Assembly: GCA_002347855.1 (NCBI GenBank)
Contig: DDYE01000017.1
Span: forward strand, 188,839-252,838
Length of the DNA: 64,000 nt
Origin: Fidelibacterota bacterium UBA2242
GTDB taxonomy: Bacteria > Fidelibacterota > UBA2242
Direction: 5' to 3'
Part shown: positions 1 to 37,864 of the stretch, in pieces
Layout: every line of letters begins with the position of its first letter
How positions within the stretch are numbered: the stretch's first letter is position 1
Position numbers and translations under genes: made by a program
The notes under the pieces: model-generated
The model's database searches: none
What the model saw: only the letters and a program-made list of their open reading frames with translations
Told to the model about the DNA's origin: nothing

Positions 1-2695
1 TGAGTTAAAGAATCGCTCTGATTATGAGTTTGCAAAACAGAAATTTGAAGAATTATGGGAAAATGCTGTTGATGTTAGCGAAAGATATATTCAGACAATA
101 AATGAAAGAACCTGGCTTAATCAAAATATTACCCCTTACGAACTTTATCTTAAATTTTTATACGAGTATTTTAAGGATGAACTCTCCAGAACTGATGAAG
201 TTTTTACAAAATATTTGCCTTCCGATTTCAAAAGGTTTGAATATCAAGAACAGGCAGTTCTGAATGCAAAGAAGATATTAGAAGAATATGGTGGAGCTTT
301 TATTTCTGATGTAGTGGGACTTGGTAAAACCTATGTTTCTACTATGCTTGCAGGACAGCTTGATGGTAGAACCCTTGTTATAGCACCGCCTGCGCTTCTT
401 AATAAAAATAATCCTGGCTCCTGGCCAAATGTTTTTTCCGATTTTCATATTCCAGCTGAGTTTGTATCAATTGGTAAACTTGATGAGGCAAAAAGGTTAG
501 TAGAGCTAAGAGAATATAGAAACATTATTATAGATGAAGCACACCGTTTCAGGACAGAAACAACTATCAGTTATGAAGACATTGCTGAAATTTGTCGCGG
601 GAAAAGAGTAATTTTGGTCTCTGCAACTCCTTATAATAACTCACCAAGAGATATCCTTGCACAGATTAAACTTTTCCAGAATGTAAGAAAAAGCACTATC
701 CCCGGCGTTTCTAATCTTGAGGAATTCTTTGGAAGACTTGTGGGAAGATTAAAAGAGGTCGACCGTCATAAAGATTATAATAAGTTCCTTGATATAACAA
801 AAAGTAATGCAAAAGAAATCCGTGATAGAGTATTGAAATATTTGATGGTTAGAAGAACAAGAACTGAAATTGAAAAATATTTTGCCGAGGATTTAAAGAA
901 AAACAAGGTTCAATTTCCGGAAGTAGAAGACCCAAAGCCATTTTATTACCAGTTAAACGATGATGAAGACAGAATCTTTATGGAAACTGTAAGGTTAATA
1001 ACTCAGAATTTCAAATATACCCGTTATATGCCATTACTTTATTTAACGAAACCCATTTCTCAACTGGAAGAGCAATCGCAAAGAAATATGGGCGGTTTTA
1101 TAAAAGTCCTCCTTGTAAAACGCCTTGAAAGTAGTTTTTATGCATTTAGAAAAAGTATAGACAGATTCATCCATTCCTATGAAATGTTTATTAAGGAATA
1201 TGAAAAAGGAAATGTATATATAAGCAAAGGATACATAAACAAAATTTTTGAGCTTTTGGAACAAGGAGATGATGAAGCAGTCCAGAAACTTATTGAAGAA
1301 GGAAAAGCAGAAAAATATGAAAGCAAAGACTTTAGACCTCATTTTGCGACGGACCTAAAAAATGACTTTGAAATTTTAAGACAGATAAAATCTATGTGGC
1401 AATCTATAAAAAGGGACCCCAAACTTGAAACCTTACTGGGAAATTTGAAAAAACACAATATCTTGAGAAATAAGAAAATAATTATCTTTACAGAGTCAAA
1501 AGAGACAGCAGAGTATTTGAATGAAAATATAAATAATGATGTAGGTAAAATTGCCCTTCTATTTCATGGCAATTCGCCAGAAGTAGTTAGAGACAGAGTT
1601 ATAGAAAATTTTGACGCAAGGGCAAAAATTAAAAAAGATGATTATAAAATACTTGTCTCAACCGAAGTTCTTTCTGAAGGTGTTAATCTTCATAGATCAA
1701 ACATAGTAATAAACTACGATATACCCTGGAATCCAACAAGGTTAATGCAAAGAGTGGGGAGAATAAACCGTATAGATACACCATTTGACAGAATTCATAC
1801 ATTTAACTTTTTCCCGACAAGACAGGCAGATTCTGAAATTGAACTTACAAACATTGCTCGTTCAAAAATAGAAGCATTTTTAACATTGCTCGGCGGGGAT
1901 AGTTCAATCCTCACTGAAGGAGAACCTGTTTCCTCTCATGAACTATTTGATAAACTACTTTCAAAGAAAACTATTGCCGAAGATGAGGAAGAAGAAAGCG
2001 AACTCAAGTATTTAAGAATTATTGAGGATGTCCGCAATAAAAATCCCGAACTTTTTGAAAGGATAAAGCATCTTCCTAAGAAGGCTCGTTCTGCAAAGAT
2101 ATTTTCTCAATCTCTAAAAGATATTGCTTCTGCTGATTCTTTAATCACTTTCTTTAGAAAGGGCAAGTTAATGAAATTCTTCCTTTCAAATAAAAGTTCT
2201 ACTGTTGAACTTGATTTCTTGGCGTCTGCAAAGATTCTTAAGAATTCATCAGATGAGAAAAGAACAAAACTACCTCTTGAGGTTTACTATGAACTCCTTG
2301 ATAAAAATAAAACAGCGTTCTTTAATGCAACTATTGAAGAAATTATAAGCACTCATAAGCGTGGTGGTTCAGATAGTCAAACCAGATTGTTAAAAATTCT
2401 AAAAGCAACACAAAAAAACAGCAAGCAACTGACTGAAGAGCAGGAAGAATACCTTAAAAAACTCATAACCCGGCTTGAAGAAGGCGCTTTACCAAAACAA
2501 ACAGTAAAGAAAACCCTCAATGCACTGAACAAACTCGCAAAAGATATACAAAATCCATTAAAAGTAATTGGAGTTTTACAAAGAGAAATCTCATTTACAT
2601 TTCTAAAAAGCCACTATGCAGAAACTTCTGCTATAACAGAAGGAAAAAGAGAGGTTATATTATCACTTTATTTAGCGGAGGAAAGCGATGAATAG
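1..2695 (+). CDS. SF2 helicase (DEAD/DEAH-box, SNF2/Res-like), 5'-partial; reading frame is open to position 2 so the N-terminus lies upstream of the window
   Basis: Walker A GLGKTY, DEAH box IIDEAHRF, motif III SATP, C-terminal helicase lobe with QRVGRINR; the annotated TTG at 215 is internal because the frame continues without stop to the window edge. Confidence 0.8.
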   Translation, partial: ELKNRSDYEFAKQKFEELWENAVDVSERYIQTINERTWLNQNITPYELYLKFLYEYFKDELSRTDEVFTKYLPSDFKRFEYQEQAVLNAKKILEEYGGAFISDVVGLGKTYVSTMLAGQLDGRTLVIAPPALLNKNNPGSWPNVFSDFHIPAEFVSIGKLDEAKRLVELREYRNIIIDEAHRFRTETTISYEDIAEICRGKRVILVSATPYNNSPRDILAQIKLFQNVRKSTIPGVSNLEEFFGRLVGRLKEVDRHKDYNKFLDITKSNAKEIRDRVLKYLMVRRTRTEIEKYFAEDLKKNKVQFPEVEDPKPFYYQLNDDEDRIFMETVRLITQNFKYTRYMPLLYLTKPISQLEEQSQRNMGGFIKVLLVKRLESSFYAFRKSIDRFIHSYEMFIKEYEKGNVYISKGYINKIFELLEQGDDEAVQKLIEEGKAEKYESKDFRPHFATDLKNDFEILRQIKSMWQSIKRDPKLETLLGNLKKHNILRNKKIIIFTESKETAEYLNENINNDVGKIALLFHGNSPEVVRDRVIENFDARAKIKKDDYKILVSTEVLSEGVNLHRSNIVINYDIPWNPTRLMQRVGRINRIDTPFDRIHTFNFFPTRQADSEIELTNIARSKIEAFLTLLGGDSSILTEGEPVSSHELFDKLLSKKTIAEDEEEESELKYLRIIEDVRNKNPELFERIKHLPKKARSAKIFSQSLKDIASADSLITFFRKGKLMKFFLSNKSSTVELDFLASAKILKNSSDEKRTKLPLEVYYELLDKNKTAFFNATIEEIISTHKRGGSDSQTRLLKILKATQKNSKQLTEEQEEYLKKLITRLEEGALPKQTVKKTLNALNKLAKDIQNPLKVIGVLQREISFTFLKSHYAETSAITEGKREVILSLYLAEESDE

Positions 2696-5600
2696 GGAGC
2701 AGGCAAAAAATATAATAACTGAAACCCTTGAAAATTCTTTTGATAAAAGTAAGTTCATCTATTTTCTCAAAAACCTCTTAAAATCTTTTGAAGAGAAATC
2801 TTCTGTCTATCAAGGTAACCATATCCCTGATGCCTTTGAACAATACATAAGTTCGTTAGAAAGGATTGGTAAATATATTTGTGATGAGAAAGAAATTGAT
2901 TTACTGATTGTCCAGCTAAAAAGAGAGACCTCCCTTGAGCGTGCAAGAACAATGCAGAGGAATTTTGTTGCCTGGTACCTTAAGGGAAGTAGAGGCGGAA
3001 AATTAAAAGATGCTGCGCTTGTTGCCTTTGTTTCACCCACGAGCGAAGATTGGCGTTTTTCCCTTGTAAAGATGGATTATCGCTTTGAAGAAACACCTTC
3101 CGGCAAAGTAAAAATTAAAGAAGAATTCACGCCAGCAAGAAGATGGTCTTTTCTTGTAGGTAAAAATGAAAAAAGCCATACCGCCCGGAACAGATTTATT
3201 CCAATACTTGAGGATGATGAAAAGCGACCTACTTTGGAAGATTTAGAACAGGCGTTTAGTGTAGAAAAAGTAACGGACGAGTTCTTTAAATCCTATAGAT
3301 ATGCTATAAATGAAGTAATAATAAAATCATTGAACAAAAAGGTAGACCACCAAATCAAACATTCATTTGCCCAGCAACTCCTTTCCAGAATTTTATTTAT
3401 CTATTTCCTTCAAAGGAAAGGATGGCTTAAATGGAAAAACTACGAACAGGATAAAAGTTATATTAAAAACCTCTGGCTAAAATATAAATCCTACAACTAT
3501 GAAAATACTTTTTATTCCCATTGGCTTAGCAGTCTATTCTTTGGTGCGTTTAATAAAAAATCTCAATTTATAAATCCTGATCTACCCGATGAGATAAGAG
3601 AATCTTTTATACAAATGCCTTTTCTTAATGGTGGGTTATTTCACAAAAACGAACTTGATGAAATAGGTTTTGATGTGCCCGATAATGTCTTTGAATGGCT
3701 GTTTGAGCCAAATGAAACTGACGAAGATTTGCACAAAGGATTCCTTGAAGTATTTAACTTCACAATTGACGAATCAAGCCCCGATGATGTAGAAGTTGCT
3801 GTTGACCCGGAAATGCTGGGAAAAGTGTATGAATCCCTGATTAACGAAGAAGAACAAGGTTTTGCTGGAATATTCTATACTCCTCTTGTGGAAATTGATT
3901 TTATGTGCAGATTATCTCTTGTGGAATATCTTTGCACCAGAACCCAAACAAGTAAACAGGATTTAATTGAACTGGTTTTTACTCTACCCGCCATTGATAG
4001 TTATCAAAACATAGAGAACCTAAGGAAAATCAAAAAAGCTTTAGATGATGTAAAAATAGTTGACCCTGCTGTTGGCTCTGCATCTTTCCTTGTAGGAATG
4101 ATGAATATTTTGGTTGAATTACACTCTGCATTAACAAAAAGAATAGAAGGTAAAGAAGAAAATCTTTTTGCACTGAAACAAAAAATAATACTTGAAAACC
4201 TTTACGGTGTTGATGTTAAAGACTGGGCAGTAATGGTTGGTGAACTTCGTCTCTGGCTTTCCCTTATTATTGAAACCGACGAAAAATTTATGGACATCTA
4301 CACTAAACCTCTTCTGCCTAATCTGACCTTTAAAATTCGTCAGGGCGATTCACTGGTTGAAGCAATAGGCGATGTATTTATTAACCTGAGAGGGAATGCT
4401 CTGAAAACAATTCCCAAATCTATTCAGCAAAAAATCTCTGAACTCATTGACAAAAAGGCTGAATTCTTCTCAGGTAAACGAAGTGCTGATTTGAAGGAAC
4501 AACACGAAATAGAAAATATGGAAGCAGGAATATTCAAAAAAATTTTACAGGTAAAAGTGGATGAGTTAAAAGGAAAGTTAACAGAGAAAAATAGATTATT
4601 AAAACAATTGAAAGGCTCAAAAAATCTTTATGGAGAAGAGGACGCAAAATCAAAACAAGAACAAGAAAAACTTTCTAAGGAAATTGAGCAACTGGAAAAT
4701 GAACTAAATAAATACCAAAAAGCAATCGATAGTATTGGTCAAAAAAGCAAAAAAGATTACTTCCTCTGGGAACTTGACTTTGCTGAAGTGTTTGCTAAAA
4801 ATGGCGGTTTTGACATTGTAATCGGTAATCCACCTTATGTGCGACAGGAACTCATTGCTCCACCACTTGAAAACGAAAAAGATTATTCTCCTGAGGAATG
4901 GCGTGAGTTAAAAAGACAGTATAAAGAAAAACTTATTCAAGCAACCCAAAATGTATGGCAAGATGTAAAAAGAATCGATAAAAAGAGCGACCTCTATGTT
5001 TACTTTTACTATCAAGGATTATCTCTACTCACCGACAACGGTATTTTCTGCTTTATTAACTCCAACAGCTGGCTGGATGTGGGTTATGGTGCAGGGTTGC
5101 AGGAATTTCTACTTAAAAATATGAAGCCAATTTATATCATAGACAACATTGCCAAACGCTCGTTTAAACAGGCAGATGTTAATACCGTAATTGTGCTTAT
5201 ACAAAAACCATCTGCAAGGACTGTAGGGGCTCAAAATTTTGAGCCCGAGCTATATAAACCAGTAAAATTTATCGCCTTCAAAAAGCCATTTGAAGAGGTA
5301 GTAGCAAACGGCTGTTTGCTTATGAAAGAGATAGAAAACACCACTAAGCCAGTGTTTAACAACCCGGTTTACAGAGTCTTTCCCAAAACCAAAAAAGAAC
5401 TCCTTGAAGAGGGAGTGGAATATCCCGACGAATCAGAATTAGAATTAAACCAAAGCCCCGAACAGCTTCCTTATGTTGGTAATAAATGGGGCGGTAAATA
5501 CCTGCGCGCGCCGGAGATTTATTTTAAGATTCTGGAAAAGGGAAAAGTAGGGGCGAAAGGCCGTTCGCCCCTACTGGTGCGATTGGGAGATATTGCTGAA

Positions 5601-6470
5601 GTGCGACGGGGATTTACCACAGGTGCGAATGAATTCTTCTATCTTAAACCAGTTGGAATGACGGTAAAGGAAGTGGTAAAGATAGCAGAAAAAAATCCAC
5701 AAGCACTCATAAGAGTAAAGAATGGTGCTGGCTGGGAGGGTGAGATTGAGGCAGAGTTTTTAAAGCCTGTGATTAAAAGCCCAAGAGAACTAAAAACCAT
5801 CATGGTAAGGATTGAAGACCTGAATTATCTCGTATTTATGTGCCACAAGAGCAAGAAAGAACTCAAAGGGACAAAGGCGCTGGAGTATATTGAGTGGGGA
5901 GAGAAGCAAAAATTCAACCAAAGACCGACTTGTAGAAGTAGGAGCTTGTGGTGGGATTTGGGGGAGTTATATTTTTTGATAATCTCGAAAAGATTTGTTG
6001 ATGAGAGTTTTTCATACTTTTATAATCAAAATAATTTTTTTGTTGGAGATACATTTTTCATTATTAATACTATAAATCCATATGATGTTTTAATAACTTT
6101 AAACTCAATTATCGGAAGTCTATTTACTGAAATTATTGGAAGAAAAAATATGGGTGAAGGTGTTCTTTTAATATATGGTCCTGAAATCTATAATATACTT
6201 ACTATTAAAAAACTTGACACTACTGATGAATTAAAACAAAAAGTCTTCTTTTCAATAATTAATAAAAATGTGTCCTCAATATTTAATGAAATATCTATAG
6301 ACAAGAATCATCCCATTCGTGAGCAGGAGCCCAATCCCTTGCCCGACCGTAAGGAGCTGGACGATATTGTTTTTGATGCTCTTGGCCTCACCGAAGAAGA
6401 ACGCAAAGAAGTTTACTGGGCAGTAGCGGAATTGGTAAAAGCAAGATTAGATAAGGCAAAGAGTGTGTGA
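2688..6470 (+). CDS. N6-adenine DNA methyltransferase, gamma class, Eco57I/PglX-like with C-terminal TaqI_C-like specificity region
   Basis: FYTP motif, SAM motif I VDPAVGSASFLVGM (about nt 4062), coiled-coil insert, motif IV GNPPYV (nt 4827-4838), C-terminal ...LGLTEEERKEVY... helix; ATGA start/stop overlap with helicase. Confidence 0.85.
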   Translation: MNREQAKNIITETLENSFDKSKFIYFLKNLLKSFEEKSSVYQGNHIPDAFEQYISSLERIGKYICDEKEIDLLIVQLKRETSLERARTMQRNFVAWYLKGSRGGKLKDAALVAFVSPTSEDWRFSLVKMDYRFEETPSGKVKIKEEFTPARRWSFLVGKNEKSHTARNRFIPILEDDEKRPTLEDLEQAFSVEKVTDEFFKSYRYAINEVIIKSLNKKVDHQIKHSFAQQLLSRILFIYFLQRKGWLKWKNYEQDKSYIKNLWLKYKSYNYENTFYSHWLSSLFFGAFNKKSQFINPDLPDEIRESFIQMPFLNGGLFHKNELDEIGFDVPDNVFEWLFEPNETDEDLHKGFLEVFNFTIDESSPDDVEVAVDPEMLGKVYESLINEEEQGFAGIFYTPLVEIDFMCRLSLVEYLCTRTQTSKQDLIELVFTLPAIDSYQNIENLRKIKKALDDVKIVDPAVGSASFLVGMMNILVELHSALTKRIEGKEENLFALKQKIILENLYGVDVKDWAVMVGELRLWLSLIIETDEKFMDIYTKPLLPNLTFKIRQGDSLVEAIGDVFINLRGNALKTIPKSIQQKISELIDKKAEFFSGKRSADLKEQHEIENMEAGIFKKILQVKVDELKGKLTEKNRLLKQLKGSKNLYGEEDAKSKQEQEKLSKEIEQLENELNKYQKAIDSIGQKSKKDYFLWELDFAEVFAKNGGFDIVIGNPPYVRQELIAPPLENEKDYSPEEWRELKRQYKEKLIQATQNVWQDVKRIDKKSDLYVYFYYQGLSLLTDNGIFCFINSNSWLDVGYGAGLQEFLLKNMKPIYIIDNIAKRSFKQADVNTVIVLIQKPSARTVGAQNFEPELYKPVKFIAFKKPFEEVVANGCLLMKEIENTTKPVFNNPVYRVFPKTKKELLEEGVEYPDESELELNQSPEQLPYVGNKWGGKYLRAPEIYFKILEKGKVGAKGRSPLLVRLGDIAEVRRGFTTGANEFFYLKPVGMTVKEVVKIAEKNPQALIRVKNGAGWEGEIEAEFLKPVIKSPRELKTIMVRIEDLNYLVFMCHKSKKELKGTKALEYIEWGEKQKFNQRPTCRSRSLWWDLGELYFLIISKRFVDESFSYFYNQNNFFVGDTFFIINTINPYDVLITLNSIIGSLFTEIIGRKNMGEGVLLIYGPEIYNILTIKKLDTTDELKQKVFFSIINKNVSSIFNEISIDKNHPIREQEPNPLPDRKELDDIVFDALGLTEEERKEVYWAVAELVKARLDKAKSV
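5547..5574. repeat. 28-bp REP-like palindrome copy 1 (GTAGGGGCGAAAGGCCGTTCGCCCCTAC, one arm mismatch), in frame inside the methyltransferase gene (encodes VGAKGRSPL)
   Basis: read directly; 14-bp arms. Confidence 0.9.
6403..6470. repeat. direct repeat copy A: last about 20 codons plus stop of the methyltransferase gene
   Basis: about 68 bp, repeated at 8755-8822 with about 4 mismatches. Confidence 0.9.
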
Positions 6471-6492
6471 AAAAAAATAAATAGGAGGTTAT

Positions 6493-8724
6493 ATGATAAC
6501 AAAAATAAAAATTGAGAACGTAGCAACTTATAAAGAAGCCTTAGAAATTGATAATATAAAGAAAGTTAACTTTTTCTACGGTAGTAATGGTAGTGGTAAA
6601 ACTATTTTATCAAAACTAATTGCTAATTCAGATTCATATAGTGATTGTAATATTGAATGGCAAAATAATACAAAACTAAAGAGAATTGTTTATAATGAAG
6701 ATTTTGTTAGGTCAGTTTTTTACCAAAACGAAAATTTTCCGGGTATTTTTACTATGGGAGAGGGAGCAAAAGATATTGAAGTGCAAATCGACCAGAAAAA
6801 TCAAGAAAGGGAAAAAATTCAAAATGAACAAACGAGTTTAAATAATACACTGAAACAAAAAAAGGTAGAATTAAATAATAAATCAGATGAATTTAAAGAA
6901 TTATGCTGGAGAAAAGTATATCAAAAATATCAAGATGATTTTACTGAAGTTTTCACAGGGTACCGTAATAACAAAAAAAATTTTGCTGAGCGTTTATTGA
7001 ATCAGTATGAATCAAATGAATCAGTATTAAGAAAAAATGAATACCTATTGGACCTATACAATCTTTTATTTAAAGAAGAATTAAAATCGATCAATCTATT
7101 AAATTTAATTTCAGATGAAGTGATTAAAGAACTACAAAAATTGGAGACAAATGAAATATTAAAAACCGAAATAATCGGAAAGAAAGATGTTGATATTGCT
7201 CGAATGATTGAAAAATTACACAACCATGATTGGGTAAGACAAGGAAAGAAATACTATGAAGAAAATTATGATGAAGAGAAAGGCTCTTATATATGTCCTT
7301 TTTGTCAGCAAGCAACAACAGAAGATTTTAAACAAAAACTTGAAGAATATTTTGATGAAACTTATGAAAAACAAGTAAAACAATTAGATGAGTTTATAGA
7401 AAAATATAACGAACTAAATAATAAATTGAATAAATACTTTGATGATTTATTAAATACTAAAGATAATAAATATTTTGATGCAAAAAAAGATGAATTAAAA
7501 AGCCAAATTGAAATCATTAAAGAGAAATTGAAAAACAATATTTTTCTGATAAATAAGAAAAGGGACAAGCCCAGCGAGGATATATCAATAGAATTTTTAA
7601 CTGATGTTATAGGTGAATTAAATAATTTGATTAATTCTATAAATGAAGAAATAAAAAAATATAATGAAATTGTAAATAATCAGCAAAATGAAAAAAACAA
7701 ACTTATTTCTGAAATATGGAAATTTTTCTGCAATGAAATTAGTATGGATATTAAAAGTTATTTGAGTGGTAAAAATAATATCGAGAAGGCGATAGACGAT
7801 ATCAAAAAACAAGTTGAAGAAAAAGAGACCAAAATAAAATGTATTACAAATGAAATATCAGAATTAGAAAAACAAATTAAAAGCATAAAACCAACAATTG
7901 ATGCAATAAATAAAGTTTTAGATAAGTTTGGTTTTAGGGGATTTAAATTAGCTCCAACTGAAGATGAAAAACACTATAAAATTATTAGAGAAGACGAGAC
8001 TTCTGCAAAAGAAACATTAAGCGAAGGAGAAAGAAACTTTATTGTATTTCTTTATTTTTATCATTTAATTCAAGGAGCATTGAATCCAGAAGAAAATATA
8101 AACGAACCTAAAGTCGTAGTTTTTGATGATCCAGTTTCAAGTCTTGATTCTGATGTATTGTTTATTGTAGCAACTTTAATTAAGGGTATTATAAAAGACA
8201 TAAGAGAGGGAAAAGGAAATATCAAACAGGTTTTTCTTTTAACACACAATGCCTATTTTCATAAAGAAGTCACATATTCATCAAGTCGGGATTATGGTCA
8301 AAATAAAAGAAATGACACAATGTATTTTATTATTAGAAAAGTAAACGGGATAAGTAAAATCGAAGAATATGAAACAAATCCCATTAAAACCACTTATCAG
8401 TTATTGTGGGATGAAATAAAAAATGGAAGAATAGACTGTGTATCTCTTCAGAATTCAATGCGGCGTGTTATAGAATTTTATTTTAATACATTGGCTGATT
8501 TAAAAGAAGAAGAGTTAATAAACAAATTTAACAATGAAACAGATAAGAAAATTTGTCGTTCATTAATTACCTGGATTAATGTTGGTTCGCATGATGCCTT
8601 TTTTGATATTGATTATTCGCCAAGTCCAGATGAAATTTCTAAATATAAAGATATATTTAAAAAGATATTTGAAGAAACTGGTCATATTTCACATTACAAT
8701 ATGATGATGGGGATTCCTGAATAA
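6493..8724 (+). CDS. AAA_13-type ABC ATPase, RloC/PrrC-like (putative anticodon nuclease)
   Basis: AGGAGG RBS at 6483-6488; Walker A GSNGSGKT (6580-6603); long coiled coil with CPFC zinc-hook-like motif (7294-7305); ABC signature LSEGE, Walker B VVVFDDP, H-loop LLTHN; C-terminal R-x3-E (RRVIE) followed 39 aa later by H (VGSHD). Confidence 0.6.
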   Translation: MITKIKIENVATYKEALEIDNIKKVNFFYGSNGSGKTILSKLIANSDSYSDCNIEWQNNTKLKRIVYNEDFVRSVFYQNENFPGIFTMGEGAKDIEVQIDQKNQEREKIQNEQTSLNNTLKQKKVELNNKSDEFKELCWRKVYQKYQDDFTEVFTGYRNNKKNFAERLLNQYESNESVLRKNEYLLDLYNLLFKEELKSINLLNLISDEVIKELQKLETNEILKTEIIGKKDVDIARMIEKLHNHDWVRQGKKYYEENYDEEKGSYICPFCQQATTEDFKQKLEEYFDETYEKQVKQLDEFIEKYNELNNKLNKYFDDLLNTKDNKYFDAKKDELKSQIEIIKEKLKNNIFLINKKRDKPSEDISIEFLTDVIGELNNLINSINEEIKKYNEIVNNQQNEKNKLISEIWKFFCNEISMDIKSYLSGKNNIEKAIDDIKKQVEEKETKIKCITNEISELEKQIKSIKPTIDAINKVLDKFGFRGFKLAPTEDEKHYKIIREDETSAKETLSEGERNFIVFLYFYHLIQGALNPEENINEPKVVVFDDPVSSLDSDVLFIVATLIKGIIKDIREGKGNIKQVFLLTHNAYFHKEVTYSSSRDYGQNKRNDTMYFIIRKVNGISKIEEYETNPIKTTYQLLWDEIKNGRIDCVSLQNSMRRVIEFYFNTLADLKEEELINKFNNETDKKICRSLITWINVGSHDAFFDIDYSPSPDEISKYKDIFKKIFEETGHISHYNMMMGIPE

Positions 8725-8754
8725 TTAAAATCATGCTTCTAAAAGTACAGGAAG

Positions 8755-8822
8755 GCAAAGAAGTTTACTGGGCAGTAGCGGAATTGGTAAAGGCAAGATT
8801 AGATAAGGCGAGGAGTGTGTAA
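8755..8822. repeat. direct repeat copy B: orphan duplicate of the methyltransferase 3' terminus, downstream of the RloC-like gene
   Basis: aligns to 6403-6470; in the methyltransferase frame encodes ...KEVYWAVAELVKARLDKARSV followed by a stop. Confidence 0.9.
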
Positions 8823-8878
8823 AGAAAAATGTTAATTCAAAAATTAAAATGAAATTTGAAATAAAATCGCAGAACAAA

Positions 8879-9487
8879 ATGAAATTCAATCCTGAAACCC
8901 ACCACCGCCGTTCTATCCGATTAAAAAATTATGATTATATCCAACCCGGTGCATATTTCATAACCATTGTAACCAATAAACGACAATGTTTGTTTGGCAA
9001 AATTGAAAATGGTGTAATGCGGTTGAATGAATTTGGGGAAATTGTTCGTGATGAATGGTTTAAATCAAATGAAATCCGGCGGGAAATTGTATTGAACGAT
9101 TATGAATTTGTTGTAATGCCCAATCATATTCACGGAATCGTATGGATTGTTGAAAACAATGACATGGGGACAAACGGTAATATCATTGTAGGGGCGAACG
9201 GCCGTTCGCCCCTACAAAAACAATCAAACAAAAACCAACCACCAACACATTCGGATTCCCCATTGATACGAATGTCCCCAAAATCAATTTCATCGTTTGT
9301 TGCCGGGTTCAAATCCGCCGTAACAAAACAAATAAACCAATTACGCCAAACGCCGGGCATTCCCGTTTGGCAACGCAATTATTACGAACATATCACCCGC
9401 AACGATGATGAATTACAACGAATTCGTGAATACATAATCAATAATCCAATAAATTGGGAACTGGACGAAAATTATGAACGAAATTGA
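8879..9487 (+). CDS. REP-associated tyrosine transposase (RAYT), IS200-like Y1 HuH family; probable start at second Met (ORF begins 8849)
   Basis: N-terminal HHRRSIRLKNYDY, HuH motif MPNHIHGIVWI, catalytic Tyr motif WQRNYYEHITRND; contains the perfect palindrome at 9188-9215. Confidence 0.8.
   Translation: MKFNPETHHRRSIRLKNYDYIQPGAYFITIVTNKRQCLFGKIENGVMRLNEFGEIVRDEWFKSNEIRREIVLNDYEFVVMPNHIHGIVWIVENNDMGTNGNIIVGANGRSPLQKQSNKNQPPTHSDSPLIRMSPKSISSFVAGFKSAVTKQINQLRQTPGIPVWQRNYYEHITRNDDELQRIREYIINNPINWELDENYERN
9188..9215. repeat. 28-bp REP-like palindrome copy 2 (GTAGGGGCGAACGGCCGTTCGCCCCTAC, perfect), in frame inside the RAYT gene between HuH and Tyr motifs (encodes VGANGRSPL)
   Basis: read directly; perfect 14+14 inverted repeat. 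Confidence 0.9.
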
Positions 9488-10377
9488 ATTGCATAAAACA
9501 TTAAACCAATTAGGCGAGGAATGGCTGAGTTCAAAAATTCAGCGGATGCGTAATCTATTGAAGATTGCCTTACCCGATGAAGCACTTTATCGCGAAATAA
9601 TGCTCTCCCTTGGCTATCCAAAAAACAAAGTTCAGTTTTTAGAATTGGCGCTCCTTTTACCCTACAAAGAAATTCAAAAACTCAAAACCCAACCACTCAT
9701 CGAGAAAGCACTGTTGTACAGGGCAGGATTTACACAAGACGCTTCTAATCTTCCGGGAGATTTTGACACCTCACTAAAACTTAACAATTCATACTGGACA
9801 TACAAATCAATTCGACCAGCGAACTTTCCAGATAAAAGAATAAAAGATTTTTCAGATTTGCTTTTTAAGACAACAGAAAAAGGAATATACAATTATTTCA
9901 AAAAGCAGATAGAGAAAAATTATACAGAGGTATATGATAAAACATCAGCAAAGAAAATAGTTGAAAAAATTATGTCGTTTAAAGGTATTGGGATTAGCAG
10001 AAAGAGAGAAATGTTTTTTAATATAATACTACCATTCTTTTTGTCGGATGAATCATTTAGTAATTATCATAGTTTTTTAATAAAACTTTTTGAAACACAC
10101 GCTTCCCTTGATGAAAACAGTAAAATTAAAAAATTTTATAAATTGGTAGGGGCGAACAGCCGTTCGCCCCTACGTCAACCAAATGAAAAAATTCAAATTT
10201 CAAATGCTAAGGAATATTTTGGTGCAATTAAATTTAGTGGTGGATAAAATCATTTCCGTAAAAAGGCAAAATAAAAACGCTGACACAAGTAACTGGGAGC
10301 GAGAGATAGACCAGGTAGTTTATAAACTTTATGGTTTGACAGAGACTGAGATAATAATAATAGAGGATTTTAAATAA
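9474..10377 (+). pseudogene. ORF of unknown function split across two frames; C-terminus resembles the terminal helix of Eco57I/PglX/TaqI_C-type modules
   Basis: frame 0 ORF 9474-10247 and frame +1 ORF 10183-10377; deleting the 28-bp palindrome at 10146-10173 joins them into one ORF (...KKFYKL/VNQMKKFKF...EREIDQVVYKLYGLTETEIIIIEDFK). Confidence 0.5.
10146..10173. repeat. 28-bp REP-like palindrome copy 3 (GTAGGGGCGAACAGCCGTTCGCCCCTAC, one arm mismatch) at the frameshift point of the 9474-10377 ORF
   Basis: read directly. Confidence 0.9.
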
Positions 10378-10644: not shown

Positions 10645-10872
10645 TTATCTTTCTCGTAACTGTGCACCTTCCTTTGATATGTAAGCCTCATAATAAATAA
10701 GATTCCAGTTTTTATTTTTATCTTTATGTTCCATATATCTTCGTTTTAAATCTTGTGTCCATCCAATGTAAATATTCCCATTTTTAGAATTCTTTAACAA
10801 ATACACATAATACATTTTGAAAGGGCGGGGTTCTGTAACCTGTTTAAGCGTCATTATTTCTTTTTCATTCAT
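10645..10872 (-). CDS. GIY-YIG nuclease family protein (small standalone; ORF extends to 10938, likely start at MNEKEIM)
   Basis: GIY-YIG motifs YYVYLLKN...GNIYIGWTQDLKRRYMEH. Confidence 0.65.
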   Translation of the reverse strand: MNEKEIMTLKQVTEPRPFKMYYVYLLKNSKNGNIYIGWTQDLKRRYMEHKDKNKNWNLIYYEAYISKEGAQLRER

Positions 10873-11544
10873 AAAGGCAATCCTTTTTTTAAAACATAAT
10901 CTTTTATAAAATCTGACTGTAATATACAAAAAATACAATGGTTGTCAAGAACAGTCCTGATAAAAATAAAATCCTTATAGGGTGGTGGGTGGGAATAGAT
11001 AGATAAACTTTGCCGATGCAATTGGCAGAGGGAAACTGAAACGCTTTCAGTATGGCAGGAAGTAAAGGGAGCAGTGCGAGGACGCAAATTGTGTCCAAGC
11101 CTGCGACTGTGATGCTATTTCTTTAAGTTTCTTTCTTTTGATTGGTGAATGGAATTTGGTAAAATTAGCGGAACGGTTCGTAGTGATTTTAAAAGCGGAA
11201 AGTAATAACGATTTTAGCCAGGTCAAGGTAAGGAAAATGCAGGTGCTTATATTTTAGAAAGTCTGAATATTCAAATTAACGCTGAACAGGTCGGTTGATT
11301 TATTAAAACAATTTGGAATATAAACCATCGTTCTCGATTGAGTAGATTTTGTCCGAGAGCAAGTCACTGAACCAGAATTTGGAACTTATATAGATGGCGA
11401 TTCTGGCAATCAGCGAATTCAGAGGTAAAGCGCGTCAGGTTGTTGCGGATCAGGGTCAAAGAGAAATACTTTCGCTTATTCTCAATTTTTGACGAACTTT
11501 AGGATGTACGTAAGCTTTATTAAATAATGTTAAAAGGAGATAGA

Positions 11545-37780: not shown

Positions 37781-37864
37781 GCCGAGGTGGTGGAATTGGT
37801 AGACACGCATGTTTGAGGGGCATGTGGGTGCAAGCCTGTACGGGTTCAAATCCCGTCCTCGGCA
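37781..37864 (+). tRNA. tRNA-Leu (anticodon GAG)
   Basis: acceptor GCCGAGG/CCTCGGC, anticodon loop TTGAGGG, long variable arm, T-arm GGTTCAAATCC. Confidence 0.85.

What the first reader, a model, noticed from the sequence alone, without database searches (positions are those of the whole stretch)
5547..10173. Three copies of a 28-bp REP-like palindrome, all inside reading frames, one perfect copy inside the RAYT-type transposase gene itself
GTAGGGGCGAA(A/C)(G/A)GCCGTTCGCCCCTAC occurs at 5547-5574 (in frame in the methyltransferase, encoding VGAKGRSPL), 9188-9215 (perfect palindrome, in frame in the Y1 transposase between HuH and Tyr motifs, encoding VGANGRSPL) and 10146-10173 (frameshifting the next ORF). 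A hairpin-forming element associated with a RAYT is the expected REP/RAYT relationship, but in-frame coding copies, including within the transposase gene, are unusual and suggest a mobile palindrome that inserts into coding DNA and is tolerated when the frame is kept.
Basis: seen in the sequence. Interest (0 to 1): 0.7.

Follow-up and report, generated by a model that had tools for sequence, protein, structure and literature searches.

The report
REP palindromes inside RAYT and neighbours
The three 28-bp palindromes are real: they are the hairpin repeats (REPs) that belong to the adjacent RAYT transposase-like gene, and a copy inside that gene is a published hallmark of this RAYT subclass, so this is an ordinary new example.

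Summary
**Observation.** All three are translated in one codon phase (V-G-A-x-x-R-S-P-L). The third copy does not frameshift anything.

**What it is.** They are "double-foot" GTAG…CTAC REP sequences of a TnpA_REP/RAYT. Quentin et al. 2018 (PMC6006769) describe subclass 2.4 as having such REPs and, uniquely, in-frame REPs inside the tnpA_REP gene between the HuH and Tyr motifs. Their supplementary table lists this exact 28-mer.

**Internal copy.**
- 56 of 69 metagenomic homologues carry a perfect GC-rich palindrome at that place, and most of the rest carry imperfect or AT-richer ones.
- The inner sequences differ through compensatory changes, and two codon phases are used.
- The DNA palindrome is therefore what is conserved, not the peptide.

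**The other two copies.** These are derived in-frame insertions into a type IIG methyltransferase (+21 nt) and a DUF2851-like gene (+18 nt). Orthologues lack them.

A fourth in-frame REP of a second type lies at 5223-5246.

**Not shown.** No function for the internal copy was shown, and the source genome could not be counted.

**Verdict.** A new member of a known kind, of low to moderate interest.

The parts
8879..9487 (+). RAYT / TnpA_REP-like Y1 HUH gene. Gene callers give 202 aa; an upstream ATG at 8849 would give 212 aa. HIH is at residues 93-95 and WQRNYYEH at 174-181 (212-aa numbering).
   Evidence: - Pfam Y1_Tnp 24.9 bits against a cut-off of 23.
- NCBIfam REP_Tyr_transpos 68.6 bits, below its cut-off of 80.
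- The profile of its homologues hits only 4ER8 in the PDB, E = 2e-4.
- The AF2 model's best fold match is 4ER8, E. coli TnpA_REP bound to a REP.
9188..9215 (.). REP copy 2: perfect 28-bp double-foot palindrome GTAGGGGCGAACGGCCGTTCGCCCCTAC inside the RAYT gene, encoding V114-L122.
   Evidence: - Sequence and folding.
- It lies in a 46-residue stretch without secondary structure, with pLDDT below 50 at residues 107-122.
- A palindrome sits at the homologous position in most homologues.
- The identical 28-mer is listed as a subclass 2.4 REP in Quentin 2018, Additional file 2.
5547..5574 (.). REP copy 1: one stem mismatch, in frame in the methyltransferase (VGAKGRSPL, residues 954-962). Net +21 nt relative to orthologues.
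   Evidence: It falls in a low-confidence stretch of the fragment model, between helices 184-194 and 211-219.
10146..10173 (.). REP copy 3: one stem mismatch, in frame in the DUF2851-like gene (VGANSRSPL, residues 225-233). Net +18 nt relative to orthologues, with the C-terminus preserved.
5223..5246 (+). Fourth REP-like element of a second type: GTAG followed by the 20-bp palindrome GGGCTCAAAATTTTGAGCCC. In frame in the methyltransferase (VGAQNFEP). +27 nt relative to the L208 orthologue.
   Evidence: The same element lies about 33 nt upstream of an unrelated RAYT homologue in L182.
2688..6470 (+). Host gene of copy 1 and of the fourth element: Eco57I-like / type IIG restriction-methyltransferase (1260 aa).
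   Evidence: Pfam Eco57I and MmeI_Mtase; PADLOC REase_MTase_IIG, 2.8e-131.
9474..10247 (+). Host gene of copy 3: short DUF2851-like gene whose start overlaps the RAYT stop. This is a conserved neighbour, not a gene fragment.
   Evidence: Pfam DUF2851. The same RAYT + roughly 254-aa DUF2851-like pair is found in L173, L209, L210 and L212.

Best explanation
The 28-bp palindromes are double-foot GTAG…CTAC REP sequences. These are the single-stranded-DNA hairpin substrates of the neighbouring Y1 HUH enzyme, a TnpA_REP/RAYT of the kind Quentin et al. 2018 call subclass 2.4.

**The copy inside the RAYT gene** is a standing feature of this subfamily. It lies in the variable, structurally disordered linker between the HUH strand and the helix that precedes the catalytic tyrosine. 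It is kept as a DNA palindrome, and the peptide it encodes is a passenger.

**The other copies** are lineage-specific additions: two in the methyltransferase (one of a second REP type) and one in the DUF2851-like gene.

**Inferred, not shown:**
- They arose when the RAYT, or a related one, cut and re-joined hairpin-forming single-stranded DNA during replication. Gene conversion from an existing copy is an alternative route.
- They survived because each net change is a multiple of three, avoids the one phase that reads TAG, and falls in a tolerant, variable segment of the protein.
For: **Shown: identity of the enzyme and the element.**
- The element has a GTAG foot at both ends and a 12-14 bp G+C-rich stem.
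- The adjacent gene is a Y1 HUH protein whose only solved relative by profile is E. coli TnpA_REP, which is also the best fold match (4ER8).
- The identical 28-mer is catalogued as a subclass 2.4 REP. In-frame REPs between HuH and Y are described as unique to that subclass.

**Shown: the internal palindrome is conserved as DNA.**
- Among 69 metagenomic homologues with both motifs, 56 have a perfect G+C-rich palindrome (stem of 8 or more) between HUH and WQ. It starts a median of about 10 residues after HUH. 37 of them have both feet.
- Of the other 13, five carry a palindrome with at most 3 mismatches or below the G+C filter, one has a perfect one that the G+C filter removed, about five show weaker remnants, and about two show nothing recognisable.
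- The GTAG foot is read in phase 0 (VGA…) in 23 homologues, phase 1 (xRG…APT) in 18 and phase 2 in none. Odd loop lengths shift the phase between the two arms.
- 25 distinct internal 28-mers were found by their feet alone. In them 98.7% of stem cells pair, 45 cells in 5 pairs show changes on both sides, and none shows a change on one side only. There is therefore no G-T wobble. No shuffle out of 500 reached these values.
- In four related genes the palindrome sits in the same alignment columns with inner stems GCGAAC…, GCGACC… and GCAATT….
- The palindrome uses GGG, GCG, TCG, CCC and CTA in genes of 33-38% G+C. The probability of that codon choice from the island's own usage is about 8e-6.

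**Shown: the other copies are insertions.**
- Orthologues lack them.
- Related islands without a RAYT (L213, L214) contain no G+C-rich palindrome at all.

**Shown: REP copies cluster around RAYT genes.** 32 of 56 homologue loci carry further copies of the same arm in their flanks.
Against: - No enzymatic activity was tested, so cleavage and joining by this RAYT is inferred from E. coli TnpA_REP.
- Classical REPs are extragenic and number in the hundreds per genome. Here all copies are intragenic, only 3 (+1) are seen, and none lies in the 53 kb outside the island. The genome-wide count could not be obtained.
- The RAYT has no REP immediately upstream. The nearest downstream copy is 660 bp away, so the REPtron arrangement is incomplete.
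- The net insert sizes (+21, +18, +27 nt) are not the length of the element. A simple cut-and-paste of 28 bp therefore does not explain the junctions, and no shared target motif was found.
- L215 and L173 have a RAYT at the same place, but no REP in the methyltransferase site or the DUF2851-like genes examined.
- NCBIfam REP_Tyr_transpos scores below its curated cut-off.
Confidence: 0.85

Rival explanations
1. The internal copy is not a neutral passenger but a maintained cis element of the RAYT. It would act as a master copy that keeps substrate and enzyme specificity physically linked, as an autoregulatory site, or as both. The copies in neighbouring genes would be its offspring.
For: - The palindrome is near-universal and usually perfect across homologues that share only about 40-70% protein identity, with compensatory changes.
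- REP inner-arm type co-varies with the protein segments immediately flanking it: 38 aa around HUH, rho 0.25, Mantel p = 0.001; 28 aa before WQ, rho 0.47, p = 0.0005. It does not co-vary with the N-terminal (p = 0.35) or C-terminal (p = 0.10) parts.
- The window and L173 genes align at about 78% nucleotide identity at both ends. The central roughly 280 nt, which carry a different REP type, do not align by blastn.
- In the window and in L208 the internal copy is perfect while the external copies have 1-3 mismatches.
Against: - Across 80 loci internal copies are not significantly more perfect than external ones: 42/47 against 27/34, p = 0.34.
- Decayed internal copies exist in apparently intact genes.
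- Co-variation with adjacent segments is also what plain physical linkage would give.
- Repeated re-insertion or gene conversion from genomic REPs would maintain perfection without any function.
Confidence: 0.3
2. The copies in the methyltransferase and the DUF2851-like gene spread by ectopic gene conversion or recombination between nearby palindromes, not by RAYT-catalysed transposition.
For: - The net changes (+21, +18 nt) replace resident codons rather than adding 28 bp, and there is no target duplication.
- All copies lie within 4.6 kb.
- The orthologous methyltransferase site in L208 carries a decayed palindrome whose left arm matches that island's own RAYT type (T-type, GCGACC). The window's copy matches its own type (N-type, GCGAA). 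This looks like concerted evolution.
Against: - Gene conversion needs a pre-existing homologous tract at the recipient site, and orthologues show none.
- The same REP family is dispersed over at least 120 unlinked loci in many phyla, only 3 of them next to a RAYT. This requires real mobility.
Confidence: 0.12
3. VGAxGRSPL is a conserved functional peptide motif, and the palindrome is a by-product of its codons.
For: V114, G115, A116, G118, R119, P121 and L122 are invariant or nearly invariant in the 35 closest homologues.
Against: - More distant homologues have other palindromes at the same place that encode unrelated peptides in another phase, such as GRGTARRAPT, VGAGLEPAPT and VGATRRVAPT.
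- Changes are always compensatory at the DNA level.
- The codon choice is extremely atypical for the island.
- The same 9 codons occur in two unrelated proteins, where orthologues lack them.
- The segment is predicted to be disordered.
Confidence: 0.02
4. The palindromes are transcription terminators, RNA regulatory hairpins or restriction-modification recognition sites of the defence island.
For: They form strong hairpins and sit in a restriction/defence island.
Against: - All lie inside ORFs that continue in frame, and none is followed by a T-run.
- No G-U-type pairs were seen in 300 stem cells, which argues for a constraint on both DNA strands rather than on RNA.
- Rfam gave no match in the region.
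- Related islands without a RAYT lack the palindromes.
Confidence: 0.02

Closest known systems
TnpA_REP (RAYT) subclass 2.4 with its double-foot REPs and REPs inside the tnpA_REP gene (Quentin, Siguier, Chandler, Fichant 2018, BMC Genomics 19:475, PMC6006769)
   Same: - GT[AG]G…C[TC]AC double-foot palindrome.
[quoted passage not shown]
- Short peptide repeats next to it in some homologues.
- Scattered phyletic distribution.
- The identical 28-mer GTAGGGGCGAACGGCCGTTCGCCCCTAC is in their REP table for AFZ53750.1.
   Different: - The paper describes the internal REPs as insertions and does not quantify them. Here the palindrome is at the homologous place in at least 81% of 69 homologues, with compensatory variation and two reading phases.
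- The host is an uncultured MAG, and the gene sits inside a defence island.
- Assignment to subclass 2.4 rests on these features, because the authors' HMMs were not available.
GTAG-tagged REPs, including intragenic in-frame copies (Di Nocera, De Gregorio, Rocco 2013, BMC Genomics 14:522, PMC3733652)
   Same: GTAG foot, G+C-rich palindrome, association with RAYT genes, and copies inside ORFs that encode extra residues.
   Different: That survey found most REPs intergenic and in high copy number, and saw frequent G-T pairing. Here every copy in the window is intragenic, few copies are seen, and the stems show no G-T pairs.
E. coli REP / TnpA_REP and REPIN-RAYT systems (Nunvar 2010, PMC2817692; Bertels and Rainey 2011, PMC3116915; Messing 2012, PDB 4ER8, PMC3479197)
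   Same: Y1 HUH fold, the WQ..YxEH..R motif that binds the GTAG foot, and a hairpin substrate.
   Different: - E. coli REPs are imperfect, single-footed, extragenic, organised in BIMEs/REPINs and present in hundreds of copies.
- There is no REP inside the E. coli gene.
- The HUH-to-Y spacing is about 20 residues in 4ER8 against about 50 profile positions here.
Rickettsia palindromic elements (RPE), palindromic repeats inserted in frame in protein-coding genes (cited in PMC3733652 as refs 13 and 14; otherwise my own knowledge)
   Same: Selfish palindromic DNA tolerated inside functional ORFs because the frame is kept.
   Different: To my knowledge RPEs are roughly 100-150 bp, unrelated in sequence and without a known cognate RAYT. 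This is an analogy only.
IS200/IS605 insertion sequences (TnpA_IS200, for example IS608 and ISDra2)
   Same: Same enzyme superfamily and hairpin recognition; the second-ranked fold matches.
   Different: - No subterminal left and right end hairpins bracket the gene, and there is no tnpB.
- The gene occupies the same syntenic slot (methyltransferase / RAYT / DUF2851-like) in several diverged islands, so it does not behave as a multi-copy IS.

Membership tests
REP (GTAG-type, double-foot form) | 5' GT[AG]G tetranucleotide at the foot of the hairpin, with its reverse complement C[TC]AC at the 3' end | tested here: met
   GTAG…CTAC in all three copies. The fourth element has a clear 5' GTAG only.
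REP (GTAG-type, double-foot form) | 20-40 bp G+C-rich palindrome able to form a stable single-strand hairpin | tested here: met
   28 bp, 71% G+C, -13.6 to -16.6 kcal/mol as DNA, z = -4.7 to -6.6.
REP (GTAG-type, double-foot form) | Repeated many times in the genome (classically more than 100 copies) | tested here: inconclusive
   3 copies in the 11-kb island and 0 in the other 53 kb.
REP (GTAG-type, double-foot form) | Extragenic location | tested here: not met
   All copies are inside ORFs. Intragenic copies are, however, documented for GTAG REPs and for subclass 2.4.
REP (GTAG-type, double-foot form) | Linked to a cognate RAYT gene | tested here: met
   One copy lies inside the RAYT, one 660 bp downstream and one 3.3 kb upstream. 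Islands without a RAYT have no such palindromes.
RAYT / TnpA_REP (Y1 HUH) | HUH motif and catalytic Tyr in the WQxxYxEHxxR context | tested here: met
   MPNHIHG and WQRNYYEHITR; invariant columns in alignment A1.
RAYT / TnpA_REP (Y1 HUH) | Curated family models reach their cut-offs | tested here: inconclusive
   Pfam Y1_Tnp 24.9 against a cut-off of 23 (met). NCBIfam REP_Tyr_transpos 68.6 against a cut-off of 80 (not met; the match is split into two stretches).
RAYT / TnpA_REP (Y1 HUH) | TnpA_REP fold | tested here: met
   The best Foldseek PDB hit of the AF2 model is 4ER8 (E = 1.3e-6, target-normalised TM 0.61), ahead of the IS200/IS605 TnpA structures. Only 4ER8 is found by the sequence profile.
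RAYT / TnpA_REP (Y1 HUH) | Single copy per genome, vertically stable, and not bracketed by IS ends | tested here: inconclusive
   The same syntenic slot is occupied in diverged islands. The copy number in the source genome could not be determined.
RAYT / TnpA_REP (Y1 HUH) | Binds and cleaves its REP as single-stranded DNA | not testable with these tools
   Requires biochemistry.
TnpA_REP subclass 2.4 (Quentin 2018) | REP sequence inside the gene, in frame, between HuH and Y | tested here: met
   definition.
TnpA_REP subclass 2.4 (Quentin 2018) | Cognate REP of the canonical long or double-foot type, with the sequence listed for the subclass | tested here: met
   The exact 28-mer is listed under subclass 2.4.
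TnpA_REP subclass 2.4 (Quentin 2018) | Assignment by the authors' subclass HMM or phylogeny | not testable with these tools
   The subclass profiles are not in the available libraries.
IS200/IS605 insertion sequence | tnpA bracketed by subterminal left and right hairpins, multiple identical copies, often with tnpB | tested here: not met
   No flanking end structures or tnpB in 8.7-10.4 kb. The gene start and stop abut or overlap conserved neighbours.

The most novel reading that the evidence does not exclude
The REP nested in the RAYT gene is a selected master copy. Embedding the substrate hairpin in the linker next to the protein segments that co-vary with it would turn enzyme specificity and substrate into one non-recombining cassette. 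That cassette could be swapped between RAYT genes and would seed new REP copies wherever the gene lands, including inside neighbouring defence genes.
Probability: 0.25. Interest if true: 0.6.

Novelty: new member of a known kind. Interest (0 to 1): 0.28.

Why it matters
**As it stands, little.** It adds one more example, from an uncultured MAG, of a published peculiarity of one RAYT subclass.

**Three modest points are useful to people working on REP/RAYT biology.**
- The internal REP is close to universal in the subfamily and evolves by strictly Watson-Crick compensatory changes. This argues for maintenance at the DNA level rather than occasional insertion.
- REP type co-varies only with the protein segments that flank it. 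That points to where hairpin specificity, or a recombination cassette, may lie.
- REPs can be seeded in frame into restriction and defence genes next to a RAYT. This matters for annotating odd G+C-rich peptide inserts such as VGAxGRSPL or GRGTARRAPT in metagenomic proteins.

If the internal copy proved to be functional, it would give a handle on the unresolved question of what RAYTs do and how REP-RAYT specificity is kept together.

Tried and rejected
- **Genome-wide count in the source genome: not obtained.** It returned 120 stretches from other genomes and none from the source.
- **Viral contigs.** Only 2 distant RAYT relatives were found, which was not informative.
- **"Internal copy is more perfect than dispersed copies."** Tested with foot-based detection on 80 loci: 42/47 against 27/34 perfect, Fisher p = 0.34. 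Not supported.
- **Shared flanks or a target motif at the three sites.** None found. The 51-nt extension reported by the repeat finder (63-76% identity) is A-rich sequence and probably chance.
- **Same codon phase in all four elements.** With two open phases this has p of about 0.06, so it is not significant. RAYT-internal copies elsewhere use both phases, 23:18. A 20:4 bias among copies deep inside long ORFs in other genomes rests on stop-to-stop ORFs in G+C-rich DNA, so I do not rely on it.
- **Rfam.** Nothing in the region.
- **PDB search with the single sequence.** Only E = 0.24 to 4ER8; the profile was needed.
- **Naming the organism.** The cluster look-up returned no names, so I cite only the accessions GCA_002327805.1 / DCUK01000027.1 and JGI Ga0310375_1000002.
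- **DUF2851-like ORF as a truncated gene fragment disrupted by the RAYT.** Rejected, because the same short form follows a RAYT or the methyltransferase in seven other loci.


Full report
**1. The observation**

The pattern GTAGGGGCGAAMRGCCGTTCGCCCCTAC matches at 5547-5574, 9188-9215 and 10146-10173 and nowhere else in the window. None of 100 dinucleotide-preserving shuffles gave a match. A looser search for the core at up to 3 mismatches finds only the same three sites.

- The middle copy is a perfect palindrome, 16 bp per arm with its flanks. The other two each have one central mismatch.
- As single-stranded DNA they fold into 12-14 bp hairpins of -13.6, -16.6 and -15.1 kcal/mol, with z between -4.7 and -6.6.
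- The same island with the same palindromes appears in independent assemblies from NCBI (GCA_002327805.1), JGI and ENA, so it is not an assembly artefact.
- All three copies lie in a 26-38% G+C island covering the first 11 kb. The other 53 kb, at about 45% G+C, has none.

**2. Reading frames**

- Copy 1 is in frame in a 1260-aa Eco57I-like/type IIG methyltransferase (VGAKGRSPL).
- Copy 2 is in frame in the Y1 HUH protein (VGANGRSPL, residues 114-122), between HIH at 93-95 and WQRNYYEH at 174-181.
- Copy 3 is in frame in ORF 9474-10247 (VGANSRSPL).
The ORF continues in the same frame, and its last 20 residues align with three orthologues that have no palindrome.
- The one phase never used reads TAG on either strand, so only two phases are open.

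**3.

At 5223-5246 the methyltransferase contains GTAG followed by the perfect 20-bp palindrome GGGCTCAAAATTTTGAGCCC.

- It is read in the same phase (VGAQNFEP).
- It is present in all five assemblies.
- It is absent from the closest orthologue, L208, giving +27 nt.
- It is found again just upstream of an unrelated RAYT homologue in L182.

It is a REP of a second type.

**4. What the gene is**

- The protein matches Pfam Y1_Tnp just above threshold and NCBIfam REP_Tyr_transpos below it. The match is split by the long linker.
- A profile of 35 homologues finds only E. coli TnpA_REP (4ER8) in the PDB.
- The AlphaFold model's best fold match is also 4ER8, ahead of the IS200/IS605 transposases.
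- In the model, residues 101-146 have no secondary structure. pLDDT is below 50 for residues 107-122, the stretch encoded by the palindrome.

**5. The literature already describes this**

Quentin, Siguier, Chandler and Fichant (2018, PMC6006769) divide TnpA_Y1 proteins into subclasses. They state the following about subclass 2.4:

[quoted passage not shown] Their supplementary REP table lists GTAGGGGCGAACGGCCGTTCGCCCCTAC, the exact perfect copy of this window, under subclass 2.4. It also lists the T-type variant found here in close homologues. Their Figure S6 shows short peptide repeats in these proteins. Di Nocera et al. (2013, PMC3733652) had already described GTAG-tagged REPs inside ORFs, encoding extra residues. 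The core of the finding is therefore known.

**6. What the homologues add**

The closest 35 protein homologues (50-70% identity, many phyla) keep VGA[T/N/H]GR[S/A]PL at the same place. The changes H with A, and T/N with S, are what a DNA palindrome would require.

I retrieved DNA for 80 metagenomic homologues.

- Of the 69 in which both motifs are recognisable, 56 have a perfect G+C-rich palindrome (stem of 8 or more) between HUH and WQ. The modal stem is 14 bp and the modal loop is 0. It starts a median of about 10 residues after HUH. 37 carry both feet.
- Of the remaining 13, six carry a recognisable palindrome that my filters excluded (below the G+C threshold or with 1-3 mismatches), about five show weaker remnants, and about two show nothing recognisable.
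- The inner stem differs widely (GCGAAC…, GCGACC…, GCGCAC…, GCACGGCGCGCC…, GCAGGTTTG…, GCGGTTCGCG…).
- The foot is read as a GTA codon in 23 genes and one base out of phase in 18, giving unrelated peptides such as GRGTARRAPT. Odd loops change the phase between the arms (VGATRRVAPT).
- 25 distinct internal 28-mers were detected by their feet alone. In them 98.7% of stem cells are Watson-Crick pairs, 45 cells in five pairs carry changes on both sides, and none carries a one-sided (G-T) change. No shuffle of 500 reached these values, and sliding the partners by 1-3 columns dropped pairing to 36-52%.
- In four related genes whose flanks align at about 78% nucleotide identity, the palindrome occupies the same columns with three different inner stems.
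- The codons used (GGG, GCG, TCG, CCC, CTA) are rare in the island. The joint probability is about 8e-6.

So the conserved object is the DNA palindrome and the peptide is a passenger.

**7. The copies outside the RAYT gene are insertions**

*Methyltransferase.*
- 38 of the 40 closest homologues read ILEKGK-GK-LVRL where the window reads ILEKGK-VGAKGRSPL-LVRL, a net +21 nt.
- The one other exception is P0125/L208, at 84% nucleotide identity. It has a decayed palindrome of the T type at the same site, shifted by one codon. Directly downstream it has a RAYT whose perfect internal palindrome is also of the T type.
- Whether that is one old insertion kept in step with the local RAYT by gene conversion, or two insertions at a preferred site, cannot be decided here.
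- In the fragment model the insert falls in a low-confidence stretch between helices 184-194 and 211-219.

*DUF2851-like gene.*
- Three orthologues (75-78% identity) have six residues where the window has twelve, a net +18 nt, and the same C-terminus.

*Related islands.*
- Those without a RAYT (L213, L214) have no G+C-rich palindrome at all.
- Islands with a RAYT do not always have the insertions (L173, L215).

*Junctions.*
- None of the net changes equals the element length, and I found no common target motif. The insertion chemistry therefore cannot be read from the junctions.

**8. Distribution of the palindrome elsewhere**

The hits came from these groups:

- Chloroflexota
- Cyanobacteria
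- Bacteroidales
- Desulfobacterota
- Planctomycetota
- Nitrospirota
- Gammaproteobacteria
- others

The loops are mostly self-complementary: TAATTA 17, AAATTT 16, CGGCCG 15. Only three of these loci have a RAYT at the palindrome, so in other genomes this stem family behaves as a dispersed REP. Among the RAYT homologue loci, 32 of 56 carry further copies of the same arm in their flanks, 55 extra sites in 289 kb. This is the REPtron-like arrangement described in the literature.

**9. How it most likely works**

*Shown.* A TnpA_REP-type enzyme gene and its cognate hairpin element occur together. The element inside the gene is maintained as a DNA palindrome. The elements in the neighbouring genes are derived and frame-preserving.

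*Inferred from E. coli TnpA_REP and IS200/IS605 biochemistry (papers cited).* The enzyme recognises the GTAG foot and the hairpin on single-stranded DNA and cuts and re-joins it. This allows copies to arise at new sites, probably during replication.

*Inferred.* Selection then keeps only copies that avoid the TAG phase, change length by a multiple of three and land in tolerant loops. In an island with almost no intergenic DNA, that leaves intragenic survivors.

**10. An exploratory extra**

- REP inner-arm type correlates with the protein segments that flank the linker: around HUH, rho 0.25, Mantel p = 0.001; the 28 residues before WQ, rho 0.47, p = 0.0005. It does not correlate with the N-terminal (p = 0.35) or C-terminal (p = 0.10) parts.
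- The window and L173 genes share both ends at about 78% nucleotide identity but not the central roughly 280 nt, which carry different REP types.
- This fits either specificity determinants next to the REP or simple linkage in a recombining gene.
- A direct test of the idea that the internal copy is kept more perfect than external copies was negative: 42/47 against 27/34, p = 0.34.
- I therefore rate a selected function for the internal copy as possible but unproven.

**11. Context**

The island encodes the following:

- an HKD/PLD + SNF2 helicase, cut by the window start
- the type IIG enzyme
- an AAA_13 / PDC-S06 candidate defence ATPase
- the RAYT
- the DUF2851-like protein

The order helicase / methyltransferase / [RAYT] / DUF2851-like recurs in diverged islands.

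**12. Verdict**

The feature is real and correctly located, and it was correctly linked to the RAYT. It is an instance of a published property of TnpA_REP subclass 2.4 rather than something unusual, so it counts as a new member of a known kind.

- Interest is low to moderate. It is raised slightly by the near-universality and strict compensatory evolution of the internal REP, and by the in-frame seeding of defence genes.
- The genome-wide copy number in the source organism remains unknown.

Noticed in passing
window 5223-5246: A second REP type, GTAG + GGGCTCAAAATTTTGAGCCC, sits in frame in the methyltransferase (VGAQNFEP). It is absent from the L208 orthologue (+27 nt), and the same element lies just upstream of another RAYT homologue in L182. 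No matching RAYT is present in the window.
   Followed up: partly
window 6399-6478 and 8751-8830 (bracketing 6493-8724): The 26% G+C AAA_13 / PADLOC PDC-S06 gene is bracketed by an 80-bp direct repeat (93% identity) of the methyltransferase 3' end, including a duplicated C-terminal coding stub (…KEVYWAVAELVKARLDKA[K/R]SV). Related islands L208 and L173 have the methyltransferase directly followed by the RAYT. The ATPase gene therefore looks like a later cassette insertion with duplication of the junction.
   Followed up: partly
window 8879-10247; L173, L209, L210, L212: The RAYT is followed, with overlapping stop and start, by a short (about 254 aa) DUF2851-like gene in five diverged loci. The same short DUF2851-like gene follows the methyltransferase in islands without a RAYT (L213, L214). 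It seems to be a component of the helicase/methyltransferase system, with the RAYT lodged between the two genes. It has no PADLOC match.
   Followed up: partly
window 8879-9487 versus L173 4980-5510: The two RAYT genes align at about 78% nucleotide identity at the 5' 140 nt and from about 9324 onward. The central roughly 280 nt do not align by blastn and carry different REP types (GCGAACGGCCGTTCGC against GCAATTCATGAATTGC). This suggests exchange of a central cassette.
   Followed up: partly
L208 410-433 and 1614-1643: An orthologous methyltransferase (84% nucleotide identity) has a decayed palindrome at the same site as window copy 1, shifted by one codon. Its left arm matches the T-type palindrome of its own downstream RAYT. 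This means either concerted evolution of the copies or a preferred insertion site.
   Followed up: partly
alignment A1 (for example P0021, P0065, P0072, P0100): Many homologues have runs of short tandem peptide repeats (GVGAD/GVGAH, TDATAGA…) just upstream of the internal palindrome. These are repeated partial copies of the 5' arm and match Figure S6 of Quentin 2018. They hint at local slippage or repeated cutting and re-joining.
   Followed up: no
window 10183-10377: A short ORF downstream of copy 3 ends in …EREIDQVVYKLYGLTETEIIIIEDFK. From my own knowledge this resembles the C-terminus of type II/IIG methyltransferases, so it may be a remnant of another restriction-modification gene. A GIY-YIG ORF lies on the minus strand at 10645-10938.
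   Followed up: no
window 37781-37864: This tRNA gene is the only Rfam match at gathering score in the window.
   Followed up: no
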